Below, one piece after another: positions 44,522 to 52,119 of a stretch of 64,000 nt of DNA. The notes under the pieces were generated by a model that was not told the DNA's origin, ran no database searches, and saw nothing but the letters and a program-made list of their open reading frames with translations. The position numbers were made by a program, and so were the translations under genes. Within the stretch, counting starts at the first letter, position 1; each line of letters begins with the position of its first letter. This DNA comes from an uncultured Alphaproteobacteria bacterium (GTDB lineage: Bacteria; Pseudomonadota; Alphaproteobacteria; RF32; CAG-239): assembly GCA_944392275.1 (NCBI GenBank), contig CALXWA010000001.1, forward strand, positions 4,737-68,736. Reading direction: 5' to 3'.

Positions 44522-45088
44522 ATGACAAAAATGTATCCAAGCGGTGAAAATTGTGCAAATAGAACCGTTGATGAAAGCTTAAAGAAAGGTTGGGAAAAAG
44601 TCGAGCAAAAGGTTGGACGAGTAGTTGCATCCGCCGGCTTAACTGCAGGTGGATTAAAAGTTACGGAGCTTGGGTTTCGTTTAAATGAAAGTATGGTCAA
44701 TTTAGGCAATCATGCGGCCGATGTTGCAGACAAAGTTTTGGGAGGAGCCGGTGCTATCACAGGGCTTGGAATAAGCGGTGTCGGAGTAGCCATGACCGGA
44801 GCCGGAGTTTATCTGGGATATCGTTTAGCCAAAGACCATCGTTTGAAAGAAAAGTTTGTTAAAGCCTATAAGAACTCATCGACAAAAATTAAGACAAAGG
44901 TAACTCCTTTTGTTGCTAAAGCCAAAAAGACAATTGAAGAGTATCGAGAAGGTGTGGATATTACGGATGCCAAAGGGCGTTATACGGCAACATATGTCGG
45001 AAACGGAAAATATGTTGAACAACCGCTCAAAAAATTAAATAGTAATATAAAACAAATGTGGCAAAAATTGAAAGGGAATGTTCGTTAA
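44522..45088 (+). CDS. Hypothetical protein with a glycine-zipper membrane segment
   Basis: GGAGAITGLGISGVGVAMTGAGVYLG glycine-zipper helix. Translationally coupled to the next ORF (TAA then ATG, 0-nt gap). Confidence 0.4.
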   Translation: MTKMYPSGENCANRTVDESLKKGWEKVEQKVGRVVASAGLTAGGLKVTELGFRLNESMVNLGNHAADVADKVLGGAGAITGLGISGVGVAMTGAGVYLGYRLAKDHRLKEKFVKAYKNSSTKIKTKVTPFVAKAKKTIEEYREGVDITDAKGRYTATYVGNGKYVEQPLKKLNSNIKQMWQKLKGNVR

Positions 45089-45439
45089 ATGAGCGAATAC
45101 ACAACCGAGAAAAGTTTTATGATTGCGGAAGGTGAGGCTGGAGAAATTTATTTTTATCTCAAGGCTAAAAAAGATCACCCGACCACACCGCGTATAATAT
45201 ACGATGGCAAAGAGCATGCCATCTTTTTACGCAATAAGGATCAAAAGATTATTCTGGATTATATCAATCCGGAAGTTCGGGATAAGCTCCGCAAAAGCAA
45301 AGAGGTCATAATAGTTGAAACCATATTGGAAAATATCAAAGAGTGTTACATTGCCGACATGCAAATGGTAGACAATATTCCGCTAGACTGGTCCAAAATT
45401 GGTTTGTCAACGTGGGAAAAAGTTGCCCTTGGAAAATAA
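45089..45439 (+). CDS. Small hypothetical protein (paralog of 23031..23339)
   Basis: Shares EAGEI...P..PRIIYDGKEHAIFLR with the 23031 ORF. Confidence 0.4.
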   Translation: MSEYTTEKSFMIAEGEAGEIYFYLKAKKDHPTTPRIIYDGKEHAIFLRNKDQKIILDYINPEVRDKLRKSKEVIIVETILENIKECYIADMQMVDNIPLDWSKIGLSTWEKVALGK

Positions 45440-46708: not shown

Positions 46709-47257
46709 TTATCTCAAACGATGTTCCCAAAGCTCATCAAAAAGCTTGCTCCCGGATTTATCCATCCACTCAAACAAAACCATTTCTCTTGAGACAACAT
46801 CAATCCCATGTTGTATAAGCCGCTGAATCCCCAATGAGTTCTGATAACTGCTACGGGAAGAACAGCTGTCAGCTACAACAAACACCTCATATCCAGCATC
46901 ATGAAAATCAATAGCAGTTTGCAAAACGCACAAATGAGTTTCCAACCCGGCAATAACAAGTTGTTTTTTGCCGATTTTCTTTACGGCATCGCGGATTTTT
47001 TTATTTTTATAACAAGAAAAAGTATCTTTCTCATAATAGCAGGTATCTTTTTTCAAAACCTTACGCAAATCAATCATGGTTGAGCCAAAGACTTTGTGAT
47101 CTTGCTCGGCAATAATATACGGAATATTAAGTTCTCCGGCAACTTCCAACAAGGTAGAACAACCGTTTATCACACCGCGAGGGCTTTCTTGTACTGGGGT
47201 TAAATTTTCCTGAACATCAATAATCAAAAGAAGGGAATCTTTTTTATTTATGAGCAT
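46709..47257 (-). CDS. Isochorismatase-family cysteine hydrolase
   Basis: LLLIIDVQENL..., C-terminal catalytic-Cys region VVADSCSSRS. 182 aa. Confidence 0.65.
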   Translation of the reverse strand: MLINKKDSLLLIIDVQENLTPVQESPRGVINGCSTLLEVAGELNIPYIIAEQDHKVFGSTMIDLRKVLKKDTCYYEKDTFSCYKNKKIRDAVKKIGKKQLVIAGLETHLCVLQTAIDFHDAGYEVFVVADSCSSRSSYQNSLGIQRLIQHGIDVVSREMVLFEWMDKSGSKLFDELWEHRLR

Positions 47258-47423: not shown

Positions 47424-47813
47424 TTAGCTGAAGAGTGCCTCGACGGCCTCATCAAAGTTCATAGGGTTAGGATTGTATCCCTTATACCAAGAACTTTTCT
47501 TTTCCCAGATATAAAGTTCTCGAGCATTTTCAGCTAAAGAACAATATTCAGAAGGATAAACCTCGCCGCCAAAAGCTTCTTGTAAAGCCTCAGCATGTTC
47601 TTTGCTACCTGCAAAGTACTGTCCGTCTAAGGATAAAAGCTCAAACTCTAATCCATAACGTTGCCCTAAGTGGTAAACAACATCACGAAGAACACATGCT
47701 CCCCCATAAAGAGAGAAAAAGACCTTTCCAATGTTTTTTACAAAACCATCAGGATTAACAGAAGATAACAGTTCTTTACGAATAGCATCGATTTTTTGTT
47801 TTTTTGTTTCCAT
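47424..47813 (-). CDS. Hypothetical protein
   Basis: 129-aa ORF with no recognisable motif. Confidence 0.35.
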   Translation of the reverse strand: METKKQKIDAIRKELLSSVNPDGFVKNIGKVFFSLYGGACVLRDVVYHLGQRYGLEFELLSLDGQYFAGSKEHAEALQEAFGGEVYPSEYCSLAENARELYIWEKKSSWYKGYNPNPMNFDEAVEALFS

Positions 47814-48039: not shown

Positions 48040-48312
48040 TTAATTAACGGCTGTCTTGACGTAAGAGATATTTTTACGAACATTCATCGCATTAATTTCC
48101 TCGGAATTTCCGCGTTTAATTAAAGCCATTTCTGCTTCTTGATAAAGCAAATACTTATCAAGATAAGCCATAATTTCCTCATGGTGTCCTCGTTTAATTA
48201 AAGCCATTTCCGCTTCGGTATTAAGCAAATACTTATTAATATAAGCCATAATTTCTTCGTGGTTTCCACGAAGAATCATATCCATTTCTTGATTTGATCC
48301 TATTTTTTCCAT
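48040..48312 (-). CDS. Small protein made of three ~24-aa tandem repeats
   Basis: (E)AEMALIKRG(H/N)(H/S)EEI(M/N)AY(L/I)(D/N)KYLL repeated three times; the repeats are also visible in the DNA. Confidence 0.35.
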   Translation of the reverse strand: MEKIGSNQEMDMILRGNHEEIMAYINKYLLNTEAEMALIKRGHHEEIMAYLDKYLLYQEAEMALIKRGNSEEINAMNVRKNISYVKTAVN

Positions 48313-48482
48313 AATAATTAAATATTTAAATAATAAAATTTCCTAAAATAATTAAAATCAAAAGCAATTATAGCATAAAAATCTAAAATCACAACGCTTT
48401 TGTATAAATTGGACAAAAATTGTTATTCCTCAAATTCTTTGACAGAAGTCGGACCATTTTTTTTAGAGTTGTATTGGCACGA

Positions 48483-48625
48483 AAAAAAAGACCACCTTTT
48501 TGCACAAAGGTGGTCGGAGAGTTCGTAAATCACATTTCGCAAAATGATTCTCTTAGTCTTTAAAATCAAAAGATTTCTATTGTATACACTAAAAGCTCCC
48601 CGACCATAATCAGGGATATATTTAT
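48483..48625 (-). ncRNA. Candidate small RNA, copy A (conserved 5' block, variable middle, terminator hairpin)
   Basis: Minus-strand reading: GATTATGGTCGGGGAGCTTTT, then ~58 variable nt, then TGATTTACGAACTCTCCGACCACCTTTGTGCAAAAAGGTGGTC plus a T-run. A second copy lies at 51806..51940. Confidence 0.35.
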
Positions 48626-48853
48626 TGCCTTTTCGACTAAGGCAAATAACGGCATTATGATGATATGAGCTAATGAAAGTCCCTGCCACTCTCGTGATAC
48701 TAAACGCAGGCTTTTAACCCACGCCTATCTTCCAATATAAATGATTTTTCTTAAAATGAAATCAAGATGTTTATTGAAGCCAATGCAAGTAGGACAATTA
48801 AAATTCAATTGTAAAAAAATGTTTTATCTTTACTCAAATACACCATTAAAAAA

Positions 48854-51718
48854 TTAATTACTCTGAGAGTTTGACTGGCTGAATATTTTTCGTTGTATAA
48901 AAGACAACTTGCTTGGAGAAAAAGAAGCTTTTGCTCGAGGTTTTTCTTTGGTACTAATTCTTCCTTGTTTTTCCATAATCAGATTTTGTAATTTTTGAAC
49001 TTCTTCTTTTGAAAGTTTTTTATTAGTAGGCGTTCTTAAAGTAACAGTCTTTTTCTCGTGTTCGTCAGATTGTTCGGTTTGAGCCGATTGTTTATTTTTC
49101 GTGACAACCTCATTAATATCCTTTGCCGCCAAACCGACATCTATGGCGGTACTGACACCTGTTCCTACTCCGGGAAAACATCCTGCCACACCGGAAAGAA
49201 CTTCGCCGCAAGCACCTTTCCAATCGCCCTTTTTTATTCGATTAAAAGCAAAATAGCATCCGGCCGCGGCACTCAGAATTGGAATTTTTTTCAAAACAGA
49301 CTTACCGACAGCACTTCCGGCTGTTTTTGCAACAGTTTTAGTCACGGCCTTCCCGATAGCGGTTTGAGCAGCTTTTCCCGCCACTTTAGCCGTCGTCTTT
49401 TCAATAGCTTTAACGACTTTTGTATCTGCAACTTTTTCAGCTGCTTTCATATAGACTTTTCCGGCAGTTGTAGTATTTAGAACCTTACTGCCTTTTTCAA
49501 CGGTTTGTTCTATTGCCGTATTAATTACATTATCCGCTTTTGCAATACCGGACACTATTCCTTGTGCAGAATTTACACCGACATGAACTGCCGTTTTTGT
49601 TGCGGCTTTTTCGCTAACTTCAGCAACAGCTTGCCCGCATGAAAGAAGCTTTTCTTTCTTTTGGGCAAGGAAGTCAGGATCTCTGACTTGATGAATGATT
49701 CCTTTGTTTAATTCTTCCTTTTGTTTTTGTAATCGGGCATAAATATCTGGAGCGTTTCGATAAGTATCTTTCATATCAGCTTGCCGCGAACTAAGAATAT
49801 GTTTGGTTAATTTATCAGGATTCTCCGGGACAGGTATGTAAACATCTTTATAATGCATATCGTCTAATTCATAAGAAATATGCATTATTTTTGCTTTTAA
49901 CGGATTTTTTTCGGGGGTAACAAAAGTTTCGGCATCTGTTCTTTTAATATCATACTTTGATCCGTCAGTCAAAATATTCGAACCTGCTAAATAGCCGTTT
50001 AGTGCTTCTTCTTTTGTAATCATACGATCATTGGGAAAATTTCGAGAGCAGTCCTCCAATCCAAAATTTTTGAAAAATTTATCATCGGGACTTTGCTCAT
50101 AAATATTTATAAAACCAACACGGACATCCTTAACACCGTCAAACTTGCCAACCGACGAAGAAACATAAAAATCATTTGTTGCTGATTTTCCGTTTGGTAA
50201 TGATGCTCCATCATATACTGATGCATATTTTAAATGAGGTGTTGCATAAACCATTCCTGTTCGTCCCGGACGCTGACTAAACTGACAGAAATCATCAGAA
50301 GCGATACTTCCGGAAAACAAGTACTTATCTTTGGGATATTGGTGCGATAACTCATCAAGAGAATTGTATGATTTTGGAAGCTCATCAACAGAAGAAATTT
50401 CTAAACGCTGTAAAATAGCTTGTTGCTTTTCTTCCGGTATTGATAGTCCACTTTTGATTCTTTCTTTATATGCTTCGGCCAGATAGAGTTTACCTAATTC
50501 ATTGTTAATGACATCTTGAGGTAAACGTTCTCTTATTATATCTTTTAATAATTCTTTTGGTTTTATCGGAACAACGATACCTTGAGTAATATCAGCTTGA
50601 GCAAGATCATCAATCAGTTTGGGCATAATTTCTTTGGCTTCTTTGACGGTCATTGTGGGAGAAAAGACCTCAAATTTGAAGCTATCTGAAGTATAGCTCA
50701 TATCTTTATGCAGCAACCATTGATTTGTATCATCGCCAATTGATAAACCATTATATGCAAATATATTTTTAGCTGCATTACCGTCTTTTAAACGCAGATT
50801 AAACATGACAGTTTCATTGTCGGCCATATTATCAAGCCCTTCTATATAGTTAGAAACATTGTATGTCTTAGGGTTTTTTATGTCATTTTGTATCTCTTTT
50901 GCAAGAATTCTGATATTTTTATCTTCTTGTATATTAAAGTTACTGTTTTGAAAGTTAGTTTTAATATTTTCAATAGTCTGCACTTGAGTTTGAATATCTT
51001 TTTGTTGGTTGGATATTGTATTTTGCAAATTTTTATTTGATTCTAGATACTCTTGTGAAGCGGTTTCAATCTTTTTTTTATCTCGTTCGCCAATGGAATA
51101 AAACTTAGATTTAAGGGGATCGAAACAATTTTCTTTAGGAAGGTTATCAAGCTGTTCTTTTAAGTTATTTTCTTGATATTTTTCGAGAAAAACATTTAAC
51201 TGTTGATTAGCCTCTTCTATTTTTTTGCTGTTCCTTATTCGGTTAAGAAGGCCTTGCGGCTTTTGAGTTAAGGCATTAAAATAATATTTCTTATTTTCTG
51301 TGATGAACTTTCCTGTTTCAGTATAATTTGATAATAATTTTTTTAAGTGTTCCTGCCGTTCAGGAGGATATTTTGCAATCAGATCCTCTATATCTTTTTC
51401 AAAGCCATTCAATTTTTCATTAAAATCGGCAAATGCAGACTGATTTTGCTGCAAACTTAAAACTTTTTCAGATAATGCATTTAGCTTAGCATAACGAGAG
51501 GAAAGAACGTCTTTATAAAATTCGTCAGTAATTTTTTTATTTTTTTCCGTAATAAATTTTTCAATATCGCCATTGGTTTCAATTTGTTCAAGAAGATCTG
51601 AAGCCCAAGGCATTTTCCAAATCTCACTTTTATCAGTAAAAAGTCGGCCTTTTTCTTGAAACCAAAAAGGAACGACTAATGCATTGTCCAAATTTTCCCA
51701 ATAATCAGCATCACGCAT
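48854..51718 (-). CDS. Giant Asn/Lys-rich hypothetical protein (coiled-coil N-terminal half; glycine-zipper-like C-terminal segment)
   Basis: 954-aa ORF in a region much more AT-rich than its surroundings. C-terminal AAGCYFAFNRIKKGDWKGACGEVLSGVAGCFPGVGTGV. No recognisable enzyme motif. Confidence 0.5.
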   Translation of the reverse strand: MRDADYWENLDNALVVPFWFQEKGRLFTDKSEIWKMPWASDLLEQIETNGDIEKFITEKNKKITDEFYKDVLSSRYAKLNALSEKVLSLQQNQSAFADFNEKLNGFEKDIEDLIAKYPPERQEHLKKLLSNYTETGKFITENKKYYFNALTQKPQGLLNRIRNSKKIEEANQQLNVFLEKYQENNLKEQLDNLPKENCFDPLKSKFYSIGERDKKKIETASQEYLESNKNLQNTISNQQKDIQTQVQTIENIKTNFQNSNFNIQEDKNIRILAKEIQNDIKNPKTYNVSNYIEGLDNMADNETVMFNLRLKDGNAAKNIFAYNGLSIGDDTNQWLLHKDMSYTSDSFKFEVFSPTMTVKEAKEIMPKLIDDLAQADITQGIVVPIKPKELLKDIIRERLPQDVINNELGKLYLAEAYKERIKSGLSIPEEKQQAILQRLEISSVDELPKSYNSLDELSHQYPKDKYLFSGSIASDDFCQFSQRPGRTGMVYATPHLKYASVYDGASLPNGKSATNDFYVSSSVGKFDGVKDVRVGFINIYEQSPDDKFFKNFGLEDCSRNFPNDRMITKEEALNGYLAGSNILTDGSKYDIKRTDAETFVTPEKNPLKAKIMHISYELDDMHYKDVYIPVPENPDKLTKHILSSRQADMKDTYRNAPDIYARLQKQKEELNKGIIHQVRDPDFLAQKKEKLLSCGQAVAEVSEKAATKTAVHVGVNSAQGIVSGIAKADNVINTAIEQTVEKGSKVLNTTTAGKVYMKAAEKVADTKVVKAIEKTTAKVAGKAAQTAIGKAVTKTVAKTAGSAVGKSVLKKIPILSAAAGCYFAFNRIKKGDWKGACGEVLSGVAGCFPGVGTGVSTAIDVGLAAKDINEVVTKNKQSAQTEQSDEHEKKTVTLRTPTNKKLSKEEVQKLQNLIMEKQGRISTKEKPRAKASFSPSKLSFIQRKIFSQSNSQSN

Positions 51719-51805
51719 AATTCCTCTCCTGCTAAGGACAAAATATTCTATTTTACCTTATTTTACTATAAAAATTAAAAAGAGTAAACTAATTTAGAAG
51801 AAAAT

Positions 51806-51940
51806 AAAAAAAAACACCTTTTTGCACAAAGGTGGTCGGAGAGTTCGTAAATCATACAGCAAGTGATGACCTCTTGACCTTTAGGTAAAACCTTGGACAT
51901 ACGTCAAAAGCTCCCCGACCATAATCGGAGGCCTCATTAC
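51806..51940 (-). ncRNA. Candidate small RNA, copy B, with promoter-like hexamers
   Basis: Same conserved ends as copy A with a different middle. On the minus strand it is preceded by TTGAAT-N16-TACAAT (plus-strand coordinates 51947-51973). Ends in the hairpin ACCTTTGTGCAAAAAGGTG plus a T-run. Confidence 0.35.
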
Positions 51941-52003
51941 ACGCAAATTGTAACCCCAGTAAAAGAAAATTCAAGTGTTGTTTCCTCTTTTGCCAAAAAC
52001 GAT

Positions 52004-52040
52004 GATAAAAAAAAGCAGTCATTTTCATGACTGCCTTTTG
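52004..52040 (-). terminator. Intrinsic terminator downstream of tRNA-Glu
   Basis: Minus-strand GGCAGTCAT-GAAA-ATGACTGCC hairpin followed by TTTTTTTT. Confidence 0.6.
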
Positions 52041-52043
52041 TAT

Positions 52044-52119
52044 TGGTGATCCCAGCGGGAATCGAACCCGCGTTACCGCCGTGAGAGGGCGATGTCCTAG
52101 GCCGCTAGACGATGGGACC
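52044..52119 (-). tRNA. tRNA-Glu (anticodon CUC)
   Basis: Reverse complement GGTCCCATCGTCTAGCGGCCTAGGACATCGCCCTCTCACGGCGGTAACGCGGGTTCGATTCCCGCTGGGATCACCA. It aligns with bacterial tRNA-Glu and the anticodon loop CTCTCAC gives CUC. Confidence 0.8.

What the first reader, a model, noticed from the sequence alone, without database searches (positions are those of the whole stretch)
48423..52040. AT-rich islet beside tRNA-Glu carrying a 954-aa Asn/Lys-rich ORF, bracketed by two copies of a ~120-nt element
The 48.8-51.7 kb stretch is visibly more AT-rich than the flanking housekeeping DNA. It encodes one giant minus-strand ORF. Its N-terminal ~450 aa are Asn/Lys/Gln/Glu-rich coiled coil. Its C-terminal segment (AAGCYFAFNRIKKGDWKGACGEVLSGVAGCFPGVGTGV) is glycine-zipper-like. 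In between there are S-S-S and R-containing blocks but no enzyme motif I can read. The segment sits between tRNA-Glu(CUC) and a small repeat protein. It is flanked by two same-orientation copies of an element with identical ends (~42 nt and ~22 nt) and unrelated middles. A tRNA-adjacent position, a compositional shift and flanking repeats are the hallmarks of a horizontally acquired effector or toxin islet.
Basis: partly seen in the sequence, partly recalled or inferred. Interest (0 to 1): 0.65.

Follow-up and report, generated by a model that had tools for sequence, protein, structure and literature searches.

The report
Orphan giant gene between RNA-motif copies
Next to a tRNA gene, a gut alphaproteobacterium carries a species-specific block whose main gene encodes a 954-residue protein of an uncharacterised family, and the two "repeats" around it are copies of a widespread, previously uncatalogued structured RNA rather than insertion scars.

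Summary
The sequence features are real: a 954-aa ORF (48854-51718, minus strand), tRNA-Glu(CUC), a small repeat-protein gene and two same-orientation element copies. AT-richness is modest (GC 0.35 against 0.40±0.03 for genes; GC3 -2.5 sd).

The block is accessory. The nearest relative found keeps ffh operon, NUDIX, tRNA-Glu and isochorismatase but has unrelated genes between them. The closest ORF954 homologue (89.5% nt, dS 0.26) sits elsewhere in another genome, whereas ffh dS to the nearest relative found is 1.6. No integrase and no tRNA-derived repeats are present.

The "repeats" are the 3' half of a ~200-260-nt structured RNA found in 30 gut and rumen contigs. In it, 97.9% of cells pair and 22 of 38 pairs show compensatory changes. 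It has no Rfam 15 match. It ends in a terminator and sits just upstream of varied accessory genes. Copy A is 5'-truncated and copy B is full-length but degenerate.

ORF954 belongs to a family confined, where labelled, to Alphaproteobacteria MAGs, with shuffled domains: an N-terminal helical domain, an alpha/beta domain, a conserved core with no sequence or fold relative, and a Lys-periodic and Gly/Ala-rich tail. An effector or toxin role is plausible but unproven.

The parts
52044..52119 (-). tRNA-Glu(CUC). It is conserved upstream of ffh in most relatives and marks the edge of the variable site.
   Evidence: ARAGORN and Rfam in the window. Same tRNA in relatives' ffh loci and in L135.
52010..52039 (-). 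Intrinsic terminator of the tRNA-Glu gene.
   Evidence: Terminator scan; sequence read.
51947..51974 (-). Promoter-like site (TTGAAT-16-TACAAT) directly upstream of RNA copy A.
   Evidence: Consensus scan only. Not evidence of function.
51806..51931 (-). RNA-motif copy A. It is 5'-truncated and keeps hairpin He, helix Hf/Hg, the 3' strand and the terminator (profile positions 100-230 of 232).
   Evidence: nhmmer E=4e-27; repeats; alignment; fold.
51760..51788 (-). Promoter-like site (TTTACT-17-TAAAAT) for ORF954. The region is conserved in L001.
   Evidence: Scan. Conserved flank in the alignment of winA with L001.
50864..51718 (-). ORF954 residues 1-285: Lys/Asn/Glu-rich helical domain. The same domain occurs alone and fused to other C-terminal regions in other proteins.
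   Evidence: AlphaFold2 helices at high pLDDT; profile hits covering positions 1-285 only; composition.
50399..50863 (-). ORF954 residues 286-440: alpha/beta domain.
   Evidence: Models. Only weak, non-significant ferredoxin-like Foldseek matches.
49619..50398 (-). ORF954 residues 441-700: most conserved core (LFxG, GRxGxVYATP, VGFINVY, NFGxE, ET, NP). Part of it recurs in other large proteins.
   Evidence: Alignments; profile search; no PDB, Pfam or Foldseek relative.
48854..49618 (-). ORF954 residues 701-954 plus stop codon. It holds an Ala/Lys/Val/Thr-rich segment with Lys every 4th residue, two Gly/Ala/Cys-rich moderately hydrophobic stretches, and a basic tail with a conserved ILQKQG-like motif.
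   Evidence: pLDDT below 50. The Ala/Lys and Gly-rich part is present only in a subset of homologues.
48484..48745 (-). RNA-motif copy B. It is full-length, but its 5' domain is degenerate and it lacks a partner for the long-range helix. It ends in a strong terminator (48490-48515).
   Evidence: nhmmer E=1e-36 for positions 51-231; alignments; terminator; fold z=-3.4.
48367..48394 (-). Promoter-like site (TTGTGA-16-TATAAT, with TG) for the repeat-protein gene.
   Evidence: Scan.
48040..48312 (-). Repeat-protein gene. Repeat number varies between strains (81 to 283 aa).
47424..47813 (-). 129-aa orphan gene. It is the last gene of the species-specific segment before isochorismatase (46709-47257).
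   Evidence: Absent from the syntenic site in L135. Found paired with isochorismatase in another context in L139-L142.

Best explanation
Shown:
- The 47.4-52.0 kb stretch is species-specific cargo at a variable site between tRNA-Glu(CUC) and an isochorismatase gene, in an uncultured gut alphaproteobacterium near 'CAG:495'.
- The two 'bracketing repeats' are copies of one class of structured RNA (about 200-260 nt, a multi-helix junction closed by a P1 helix and followed by an intrinsic terminator).
- One copy lies upstream of each of two neighbouring genes. Copy A (5'-truncated) precedes ORF954. Copy B (full-length but decayed) precedes the variable-repeat protein gene.

Inferred:
- The unit RNA + promoter + ORF954 moved recently. 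The window arrangement [3' module - promoter - ORF954 - 5' domain - 3' module] is a circular permutation of the L001 arrangement [5' domain - 3' module - promoter - ORF954].
- This permutation is what a crossover within the RNA element would give, either with a circular or tandem copy, or by homologous exchange. The He hairpin CCCCGA..TCGGGG is a candidate crossover site.
- No integrase is needed in the block for this to happen.

Most likely function of ORF954 (inferred):
- It is a non-Sec exported or envelope-associated multidomain protein.
- A shared N-terminal helical module serves as a delivery or adaptor domain.
- A conserved core with invariant Arg/Tyr/Glu/Glu/Asn is probably catalytic or ligand-binding.
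- A cationic Lys-periodic segment plus a Gly/Ala-rich hairpin contacts a membrane.
For: Variable site:
- L135 (Ffh 83.6%, isochorismatase 79%) keeps ffh operon, NUDIX, tRNA-Glu and isochorismatase. Between the last two it has genes of 273, 95 and 416 aa with no similarity to the window block.
- None of the 80 related ffh loci carries ORF954 in the up to 10 kb of flank fetched on each side.
- All five same-species contigs that span the site carry it there.

Recent movement:
- L001 and L088 share 89.5% nt identity over 3.1 kb. The identity stops 32 nt after the stop codon and resumes in permuted order.
- For ORF954, dS is 0.26 and dN/dS is 0.28. For ffh against the nearest relative found, dS is 1.56.
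- Every Ffh and NUDIX sequence within the 90% clusters is at least 97.7% identical. The carriers of the most divergent Ffh and NUDIX members are 99.3% and 99.2% nt identical to the window.

RNA:
- The 3' block pattern hit 33 metagenome contigs, of which 30 carry the RNA and 3 are unrelated chance matches.
- On the 21-sequence alignment, 97.9% of cells pair and 22 of 38 pairs change on both sides. Slid controls give 39-51% paired and at most 10 such pairs.
- There is no Rfam 15 family match.
- A terminator follows the RNA, and the next gene's Shine-Dalgarno sequence and ATG follow closely.
- In L024 the RNA is interrupted exactly after GGTCGGGGAG.
- L122 holds two partial copies and one full copy within 1 kb.

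Protein:
- 21 homologues and 82 profile hits. The N-terminal domain and the core occur separately in other proteins.
- Residues 1-695 are modelled confidently.
- There is no signal peptide-like hydrophobic N-terminus.
- The tail features are described.
Against: - No recombinase, circular junction or empty site was observed.
- The L001 genome could be an unsampled close sister species. In that case dS 0.26 reflects vertical descent plus rearrangement.
- Partial 3' copies lie upstream of the full copy. This is not what tRNA- or tmRNA-type integration produces.
- In the window each terminator is followed by a separate promoter-like site, at 88 nt and 170 nt from the start codons. The RNA copies may therefore be uncoupled from the genes downstream.
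- The 5' domains of copy B and of the L001 copy have lost the conserved loop and the long-range helix.
- Homologues at 38-45% identity sit among housekeeping murein and MreB-like genes in stable contexts.
- No secretion-system gene, immunity gene or known toxin domain accompanies ORF954.
- Codon usage is ordinary.
Confidence: 0.45

Rival explanations
1. Classical tRNA-linked genomic islet. An integrase-mobilised element carrying a toxin or effector inserted next to tRNA-Glu, and the two repeats are its attL and attR sites.
For: The block is adjacent to a tRNA, is flanked by direct repeats, is modestly AT-rich and is absent from the same site in L135.
Against: - The repeats show no similarity to the tRNA.
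- The repeats are homologous to a conserved structured RNA present at many unrelated loci.
- No integrase or transposase ORF lies in the block.
- The outer boundary of the variable segment extends beyond copy B, to 47.4 kb.
Confidence: 0.08
2. ORF954 is a vertically inherited, fast-evolving, clade-specific envelope or morphogenesis protein. Its different positions reflect ordinary rearrangement, and the RNA copies are unrelated neighbours (leaders, small RNAs or reused terminators).
For: - There are about 13 full-length clusters at 50% identity among the hits.
- Selection is purifying (dN/dS 0.28).
- The gene is fixed in all same-species contigs that span the site.
- Homologues lie beside SLT, RlpA-like, PBP5, MurA-like and MreB/Hsp70-like genes in two genera.
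- Codon usage is ordinary.
Against: - The gene sits in five different contexts in six genomes.
- The closest homologue is at another locus, with the unit in permuted order.
- No Ffh or NUDIX sequence of intermediate divergence exists in a 15-billion-protein collection.
- GC3 is the second lowest in the window.
- Its domains are shuffled into other architectures.
Confidence: 0.27
3. Interbacterial polymorphic toxin. The shared N-terminal domain directs secretion, the core or C-terminal part is the toxin, and the variable-repeat protein downstream is its immunity protein.
For: - The architecture combines a constant N-terminal domain with variable C-terminal regions.
- In L001 the neighbouring genes share 85% nt identity with a weak Tlde1-like gene plus a small gene in another species.
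- A weak similarity to colicin Ib was seen, E=0.06.
Against: - No conserved downstream partner exists across the six contexts.
- No PAAR, Rhs, LXG or other trafficking domain and no secretion genes were found.
- The repeat-protein gene has its own promoter-like site and lies behind a strong terminator.
- The colicin hit is not significant.
Confidence: 0.08
4. About the RNA only: it is a free-standing small RNA gene, not a cis-acting leader. The varied genes downstream are simply neighbours, and partial copies are decayed duplicates.
For: - Promoter-like sequences lie directly upstream, and a strong terminator ends the RNA.
- The closed P1 plus terminator state is favoured by 14-17 kcal/mol over the anti-terminator fold in canonical members.
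- Downstream genes are heterogeneous.
- In the window the next genes have their own promoter-like sites.
Against: - In most metagenome loci the next start codon and its Shine-Dalgarno sequence lie within about 10-45 nt of the U-tract, leaving no room for a promoter.
- Invariant complementary segments GGUCGGGGAG and CUCUCCGACC overlap the terminator stem, as in attenuators.
- Several copies occur per locus.
Confidence: 0.35

Closest known systems
tRNA-linked genomic islands or islets
   Same: The block is adjacent to a tRNA gene, carries strain- or species-specific cargo between conserved flanks, has mildly deviant composition, and is flanked by direct repeats.
   Different: There is no integrase. 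The repeats are not derived from the tRNA 3' end. They are copies of an independent structured RNA. The variable segment extends beyond the repeats.
Orphan riboswitch candidates and terminator-based attenuator leaders
   Same: A conserved multi-helix RNA with heavy covariation is followed by an intrinsic terminator and, closely, by an ORF. Invariant segments can form an alternative anti-terminator pairing.
   Different: Downstream genes share no pathway (YpsA/SLOG, DUF805, SNase, HTH, lipoproteins, large orphans). Truncated copies that keep only the 3' half are common. No ligand is implied. The RNA matches no Rfam 15 family.
Integron gene cassettes (attC sites) and tRNA/tmRNA genes used as integration targets
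   Same: Single-gene units are bounded by structured elements with conserved ends. The unit is circularly permuted between genomes. An RNA gene is interrupted at a fixed point (L024).
   Different: No IntI or other recombinase was found, and no attC R/L boxes. The element has its own promoter, terminator and strongly conserved sequence. Partial copies lie upstream of the full gene, not downstream.
Polymorphic toxins and modular secreted effectors
   Same: A shared N-terminal module is combined with different C-terminal regions, and the core domain recurs at the C-terminal end of other large proteins. The C-terminal part resembles a membrane-interacting tail.
   Different: No recognised trafficking, toxin or immunity domain is present, no conserved partner gene, and no secretion-system linkage.

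Membership tests
Integrase-mediated tRNA-linked genomic island | Lies next to a tRNA gene. | tested here: met
   tRNA-Glu(CUC) at 52044-52119, about 110 nt from copy A.
Integrase-mediated tRNA-linked genomic island | Flanking direct repeats that duplicate the 3' part of the tRNA (att sites). | tested here: not met
   No similarity between the tRNA and the repeats. The repeats match a separate RNA family.
Integrase-mediated tRNA-linked genomic island | Integrase or another mobility gene inside the island. | tested here: not met
   The only real genes in 47.4-52.0 kb are ORF954, the repeat protein and a 129-aa orphan. None has a Pfam or NCBIfam match.
Integrase-mediated tRNA-linked genomic island | Absent from the same site in relatives. 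| tested here: met
   L135 keeps the flanks and has different cargo.
Riboswitch or attenuator leader (the RNA element) | Conserved secondary structure supported by covariation. | tested here: met
   97.9% of cells paired and 22 of 38 pairs compensatory, well above shuffled and slid controls.
Riboswitch or attenuator leader (the RNA element) | Sits in the 5' leader of the regulated gene, with an expression platform. | tested here: inconclusive
   Met in most metagenome loci. In the window, promoter-like sites follow both terminators. The anti-terminator fold is 14-17 kcal/mol less stable in canonical members.
Riboswitch or attenuator leader (the RNA element) | Consistent functional class of downstream genes, pointing to a ligand. 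| tested here: not met
   Downstream genes are heterogeneous.
Any Rfam 15 RNA family | Covariance-model score at or above the gathering threshold. | tested here: not met
   Only tRNAs reached threshold in the window and in 15 canonical loci. At E<=1 the only matches were weak: isrD matches to the terminator and one snoRNA-model match away from the RNA.
Integron cassette / attC | IntI integrase and attC core sites (RYYYAAC / GTTRRRY). | tested here: not met
   No such ORF or motifs at the element ends.
ADP-ribosyltransferase (considered because of the motif pattern LF[R/S/K/N]G .. Y-A-T .. E) | Sequence or profile match to an ADP-ribosyltransferase family. | tested here: not met
   No Pfam or PDB-sequence hit for the protein, the family profile or the core profile.
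ADP-ribosyltransferase (considered because of the motif pattern LF[R/S/K/N]G .. Y-A-T .. E) | ADP-ribosyltransferase fold. | tested here: inconclusive
ADP-ribosyltransferase (considered because of the motif pattern LF[R/S/K/N]G .. Y-A-T .. E) | Invariant NAD-binding Arg or His in the first motif. | tested here: not met
   The position is Ser in the window protein and varies (R/S/K/N) across the family.
Polymorphic toxin system | Known N-terminal trafficking domain and an adjacent immunity gene. | tested here: not met
   No Pfam match in any of the 20 family members. No conserved downstream gene in six contexts.
Polymorphic toxin system | Constant N-terminal module joined to variable C-terminal modules. 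| tested here: met
   Profile hits cover positions 1-285 only, or about 445-565 only, in proteins of other architectures.
Known anti-phage defence systems | Match to a PADLOC model. | tested here: not met
   No hit for ORF954 or its two downstream genes.

The most novel reading that the evidence does not exclude
The structured RNA may be more than a regulator. It may double as the recombination site of a cassette-like system. In this reading, single accessory genes travel together with a copy of the RNA. They enter or leave chromosomes by crossover at its conserved He hairpin (CCCCGA..TCGGGG), using a recombinase encoded elsewhere. The process leaves truncated 3' modules behind. The observations that fit this are:
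- the circular permutation between the window and L001;
- the RNA interrupted exactly after GGTCGGGGAG in L024;
- the clusters of partial and full copies;
- the heterogeneous downstream genes;
- the frequent tRNA neighbours.

A milder version is that the RNA is a new riboswitch or attenuator class controlling a regulon of accessory, mostly exported proteins in gut Alphaproteobacteria.
Probability: 0.15. Interest if true: 0.85.

Novelty: new variant of a known kind. Interest (0 to 1): 0.55.

Why it matters
The finding matters in three ways.

1. It delivers a well-supported structured RNA class. There are 21 distinct sequences and 22 covarying pairs, and Rfam 15 has no match. The RNA occurs in poorly studied gut and rumen bacteria, upstream of varied accessory genes, so it is a ready target for ligand or protein-partner searches.

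2. It shows that "tRNA + direct repeats + AT-rich" can mimic an island when the repeats are really paralogous RNA elements. This is a useful caution for island callers.

3. It defines an orphan, domain-shuffled protein family. The core is confidently modelled but has no detectable fold relative, and the gene appears to move between genomes. If the RNA element mediates that movement, it would be a new way of mobilising single genes.

Tried and rejected
- **ADP-ribosyltransferase or PARP-like reading of the core.** Suggested by the motifs, but no profile or Foldseek support was found, and the key Arg/His position is not conserved. Kept only as an untested impression.
- **Known families for ORF954 and its neighbours.** Pfam, NCBIfam, PADLOC and PDB-sequence searches found nothing.
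- **Fold search with the full-length model.** Matches were dominated by non-significant coiled-coil hits. A domain model of residues 285-695 was made instead.
- **Word-indexed protein search with the core alignment.** Returned no scored hit, apparently a candidate-selection failure.
- **Diversity-generating retroelement (TR/VR) and integron attC readings of the repeats.** Rejected because there is no reverse transcriptase or IntI, and the elements lie outside coding sequence.
- **Riboswitch of a known class, T-box, 6S, tmRNA, SRP RNA, RNase P.** No Rfam match.
- **Covariance model of the RNA.** An nhmmer profile was used instead.
- **11-residue amphipathic periodicity of the Ala/Lys segment.** Not supported. 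The period is 4.
- **Search for a sister-species empty site.** Tried through NUDIX, Ffh and isochorismatase clusters. Only same-species or distant genomes turned up.
- **Shared housekeeping genes between L001 and the window.** None found, so genome distance could not be measured directly.

Full report
**Observation**

- The minus-strand ORF 48854-51718 encodes 954 aa.
- tRNA-Glu(CUC) lies at 52044-52119 on the same strand.
- A 90-aa protein built on two 78-nt tandem units lies at 48040-48312.
- Two same-orientation copies of an element share 49 nt at 96% and 28 nt at 89% identity. A 29-nt core occurs twice in the window against zero in 100 shuffles.

The compositional shift is real but modest.
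- The block has GC 0.347 against 0.388 for the window.
- The ORF has GC 0.350 against a mean of 0.401 (sd 0.027) for 56 genes.
- Its GC3 is 0.257 against 0.371 (sd 0.046), the second lowest in the window.
- Its codon-usage distance from the window average is ordinary.
- The AT excess lies in the N-terminal half.

**Organism and synteny**

Ffh of the window is at most about 83% identical to that of any of 80 related species representatives. All are uncultured gut or rumen bacteria, nearly all labelled Alphaproteobacteria or proteobacteria (for example "CAG:495").
- In these genomes ffh-rpsP-rimM-trmD is conserved. A tRNA-Glu(CUC) usually lies upstream. ORF954 is never found in the flank fetched, up to 10 kb on each side.
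- The nearest relative that also keeps the NUDIX gene is L135 (Ffh 83.6%, isochorismatase 79%, ffh-operon DNA 78.5%).
- L135 has the order ffh operon, NUDIX, tRNA-Glu, three unrelated genes of 273, 95 and 416 aa, then isochorismatase.
- The window stretch from about 47.4 to 52.0 kb (copy A, ORF954, copy B, repeat protein, 129-aa orphan) is therefore species-specific cargo at a variable site.
- Within the species it is fixed. All five contigs that span the site carry it.

**Mobility of ORF954**

The closest homologues (86% aa, 89.5% nt over 3.1 kb) lie in L001 and L088 in an unrelated context: PFOR, TetR, Mur ligase and small orphans.

Homology with the window stops 32 nt after the stop codon. 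It resumes in permuted order.
- L001 reads [RNA 5' domain - 3' module - promoter - ORF].
- The window reads [3' module A - promoter - ORF - 5' domain - 3' module B].

The divergence figures point to recent movement.
- Between the two ORFs, dS is 0.26 and dN/dS is 0.28. For ffh against L135, dS is 1.56.
- In a collection of 15 billion proteins, every Ffh and NUDIX sequence within 90% of the window's is at least 97.7% identical.
- The carriers of the most divergent Ffh and NUDIX members are 99.3% and 99.2% identical in DNA to the window, so they are the same species.
- Either the L001 genome is an unsampled close sister, or the unit moved between species recently.
- No housekeeping gene is shared between L001 and the window, so this could not be settled.

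More distant homologues (38-49%) lie in three further contexts:
- directly after tRNA-Gly(GCC) (L002);
- directly after rplS of the ffh operon (L089);
- among murein genes and an MreB/Hsp70-like gene (L145-L147).

**The "repeats" are a structured RNA**

Copy B extends about 135 nt further 5' and aligns with the element upstream of ORF954 in L001. Searching metagenomes for the conserved 3' block GATTTACNAACTCTCCGACC gave 33 contigs from rumen and human gut. Thirty carry the same ~200-260-nt element and three are unrelated chance matches.

The alignment shows the following architecture:
- a closing helix;
- a long-range helix whose eight pairs each show compensatory changes, up to 12 sequences per pair, most using all four Watson-Crick pair types;
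- hairpins Hc and He, and the nested helices Hf and Hg;
- an intrinsic terminator.

On a structure I specified, 97.9% of 778 cells pair. Twenty-two of 38 pairs change on both sides. Controls with the 3' partner slid by 1-3 columns give 39-51% paired and at most 10 such pairs. Minimum-free-energy folds of single members reproduce the same architecture.

No Rfam 15 family matches, in the window or in 15 canonical loci. At E<=1 the only matches are weak: isrD matches to the terminator and one snoRNA-model match away from the RNA.

An nhmmer profile places the window copies as follows:
- copy B covers positions 51-231 of 232;
- copy A covers positions 100-230.

The same profile finds the RNA in two MAG loci labelled Alphaproteobacteria (L024, L074). 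It also finds two partial copies plus one full copy within 1 kb in L122.

Copy B and the L001 copy have lost the invariant loop CUGUCGUAAGC and any partner for the long-range helix, so they look decayed (and the sequences themselves). The repeats show no similarity to tRNA-Glu.

**What the RNA might do**

In most metagenome loci a Shine-Dalgarno sequence and start codon follow the U-tract closely. The invariant segments GGUCGGGGAG and CUCUCCGACC are complementary and overlap the terminator stem, which is the layout of an attenuator.

Several points count against a simple leader.
- The downstream genes are heterogeneous: YpsA/SLOG, DUF805, SNase, an HTH protein, lipoproteins and large orphans.
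- The closed fold plus terminator is 14-17 kcal/mol more stable than the anti-terminator fold.
- In the window both terminators are followed by separate promoter-like sites.
- A free-standing small RNA therefore remains a serious alternative.

Several copies lie just downstream of tRNA genes on the same strand (Gly in L109, His in L112, Lys in L104, Glu in the window). In L024 the RNA is interrupted exactly after GGTCGGGGAG. Together with the circular permutation, this suggests recombination at or near the He hairpin, but no recombinase or junction was seen.

**The protein**

ORF954 has 21 homologues in a 5.8-billion-sequence set. A profile search of 1.84 billion cluster representatives gives 82 hits, 35 below 1e-30.
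- Hits covering only positions 1-285 occur as ~290-aa proteins and as N-terminal domains of other large proteins.
- Hits covering only about 445-565 occur at other positions in other large proteins.
- Two such proteins also carry a DUF6782 putative metallopeptidase domain. One of these, and one N-domain protein, carry a proline-rich stretch.

AlphaFold2 models residues 1-695 with confidence and the rest poorly:
- long helices to about residue 281;
- an alpha/beta domain at 286-440;
- a mixed beta-rich core at 441-695.

Seventeen diverse core sequences keep Gly (LFxG), GRxG, Tyr, Gly, two Glu and Asn invariant or nearly so.

The motif pattern resembles ADP-ribosyltransferases, but this is only an impression. 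The key first-motif position is Ser here and is variable across the family.

The C-terminal 250 residues hold three parts:
- an Ala/Lys/Val/Thr-rich segment with Lys every fourth residue;
- two Gly/Ala/Cys-rich, moderately hydrophobic stretches (Kyte-Doolittle maximum 1.2);
- a basic tail (+8) with a motif conserved across the family.

The Ala/Lys and Gly-rich part exists only in a subset of homologues. There is no N-terminal signal-like segment, and no paralogue occurs in the window.

**Verdict**

- The block is accessory, lies at a tRNA-adjacent variable site, and has probably moved recently.
- It is not a classical island. Its "boundaries" are copies of a new structured RNA class that accompanies many accessory genes in this bacterial group.
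- The function of ORF954 remains inferred. The best guess is an exported or envelope-associated modular protein with a conserved, possibly catalytic core and a membrane-contacting tail.
- A clade-specific housekeeping envelope protein is the main rival.

Noticed in passing
window 48040-48312 (-); L090-L095 same gene: The small repeat-protein gene is a variable-number tandem repeat. Its product is 81, 90, 194, 263 or 283 aa in different same-species contigs, and many assemblies break just upstream of it.
   Followed up: partly
window 44522-45088 and 45089-45439 (+): A 188-aa protein with a glycine-zipper-like Gly/Ala-rich stretch is followed by a 116-aa protein. The 116-aa partner recurs near sodB or the ffh operon in several related species (L005, L010, L012, L013, L017, L069). 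It might be a toxin/immunity-like or membrane pair.
   Followed up: no
L024 17391-17531: In an alphaproteobacterial MAG the structured RNA is intact up to GGTCGGGGAG and then gives way to unrelated sequence. This is the same point near which the truncated 3' copies begin.
   Followed up: partly
L122 1531-2427 (also L116, L131): Two partial 3' modules and one full copy of the RNA lie within 1 kb. The first partial copy starts right at the stop codon of an alpha/beta-hydrolase gene.
   Followed up: partly
L085 8635-8755; L086 4392-4446: In two other strains copy B carries the copy-A type middle (96-100% identity). The window strain's copy-B middle resembles the variant seen in L103, L107 and L116. 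This suggests gene conversion or alternative recombination between RNA copies.
   Followed up: partly
L139-L142 (isochorismatase + 129-aa gene): The isochorismatase gene paired with a 129-aa gene sits in a completely different context in another species. Identity is 90.7% at protein level but only 76.7% at DNA level. This suggests strong protein-level constraint, and possibly that the pair moves as a unit.
   Followed up: no
L001 7025-7821 and L140 2786-3580: Genes upstream of the ORF954 homologue in L001 share 85% nt identity with a weak Tlde1-like (L,D-transpeptidase effector) gene plus a 105-aa gene in another species. Accessory genes appear to be exchanged among these gut Alphaproteobacteria.
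   Followed up: no
L145-L147 and L002: Distant ORF954 homologues lie near murein-related genes (SLT, RlpA-like, PBP5, a MurA-like EPSP_synthase hit) and a 419-428-aa MreB/Hsp70-like gene in two genera. This could hint at an envelope-related role.
   Followed up: no
L084-L087 contig ends: Four of the eight contigs fetched that carry the ORF954 gene end inside RNA copy A or B. This is consistent with the element being repeated elsewhere in the genome or polymorphic in the population.
   Followed up: partly
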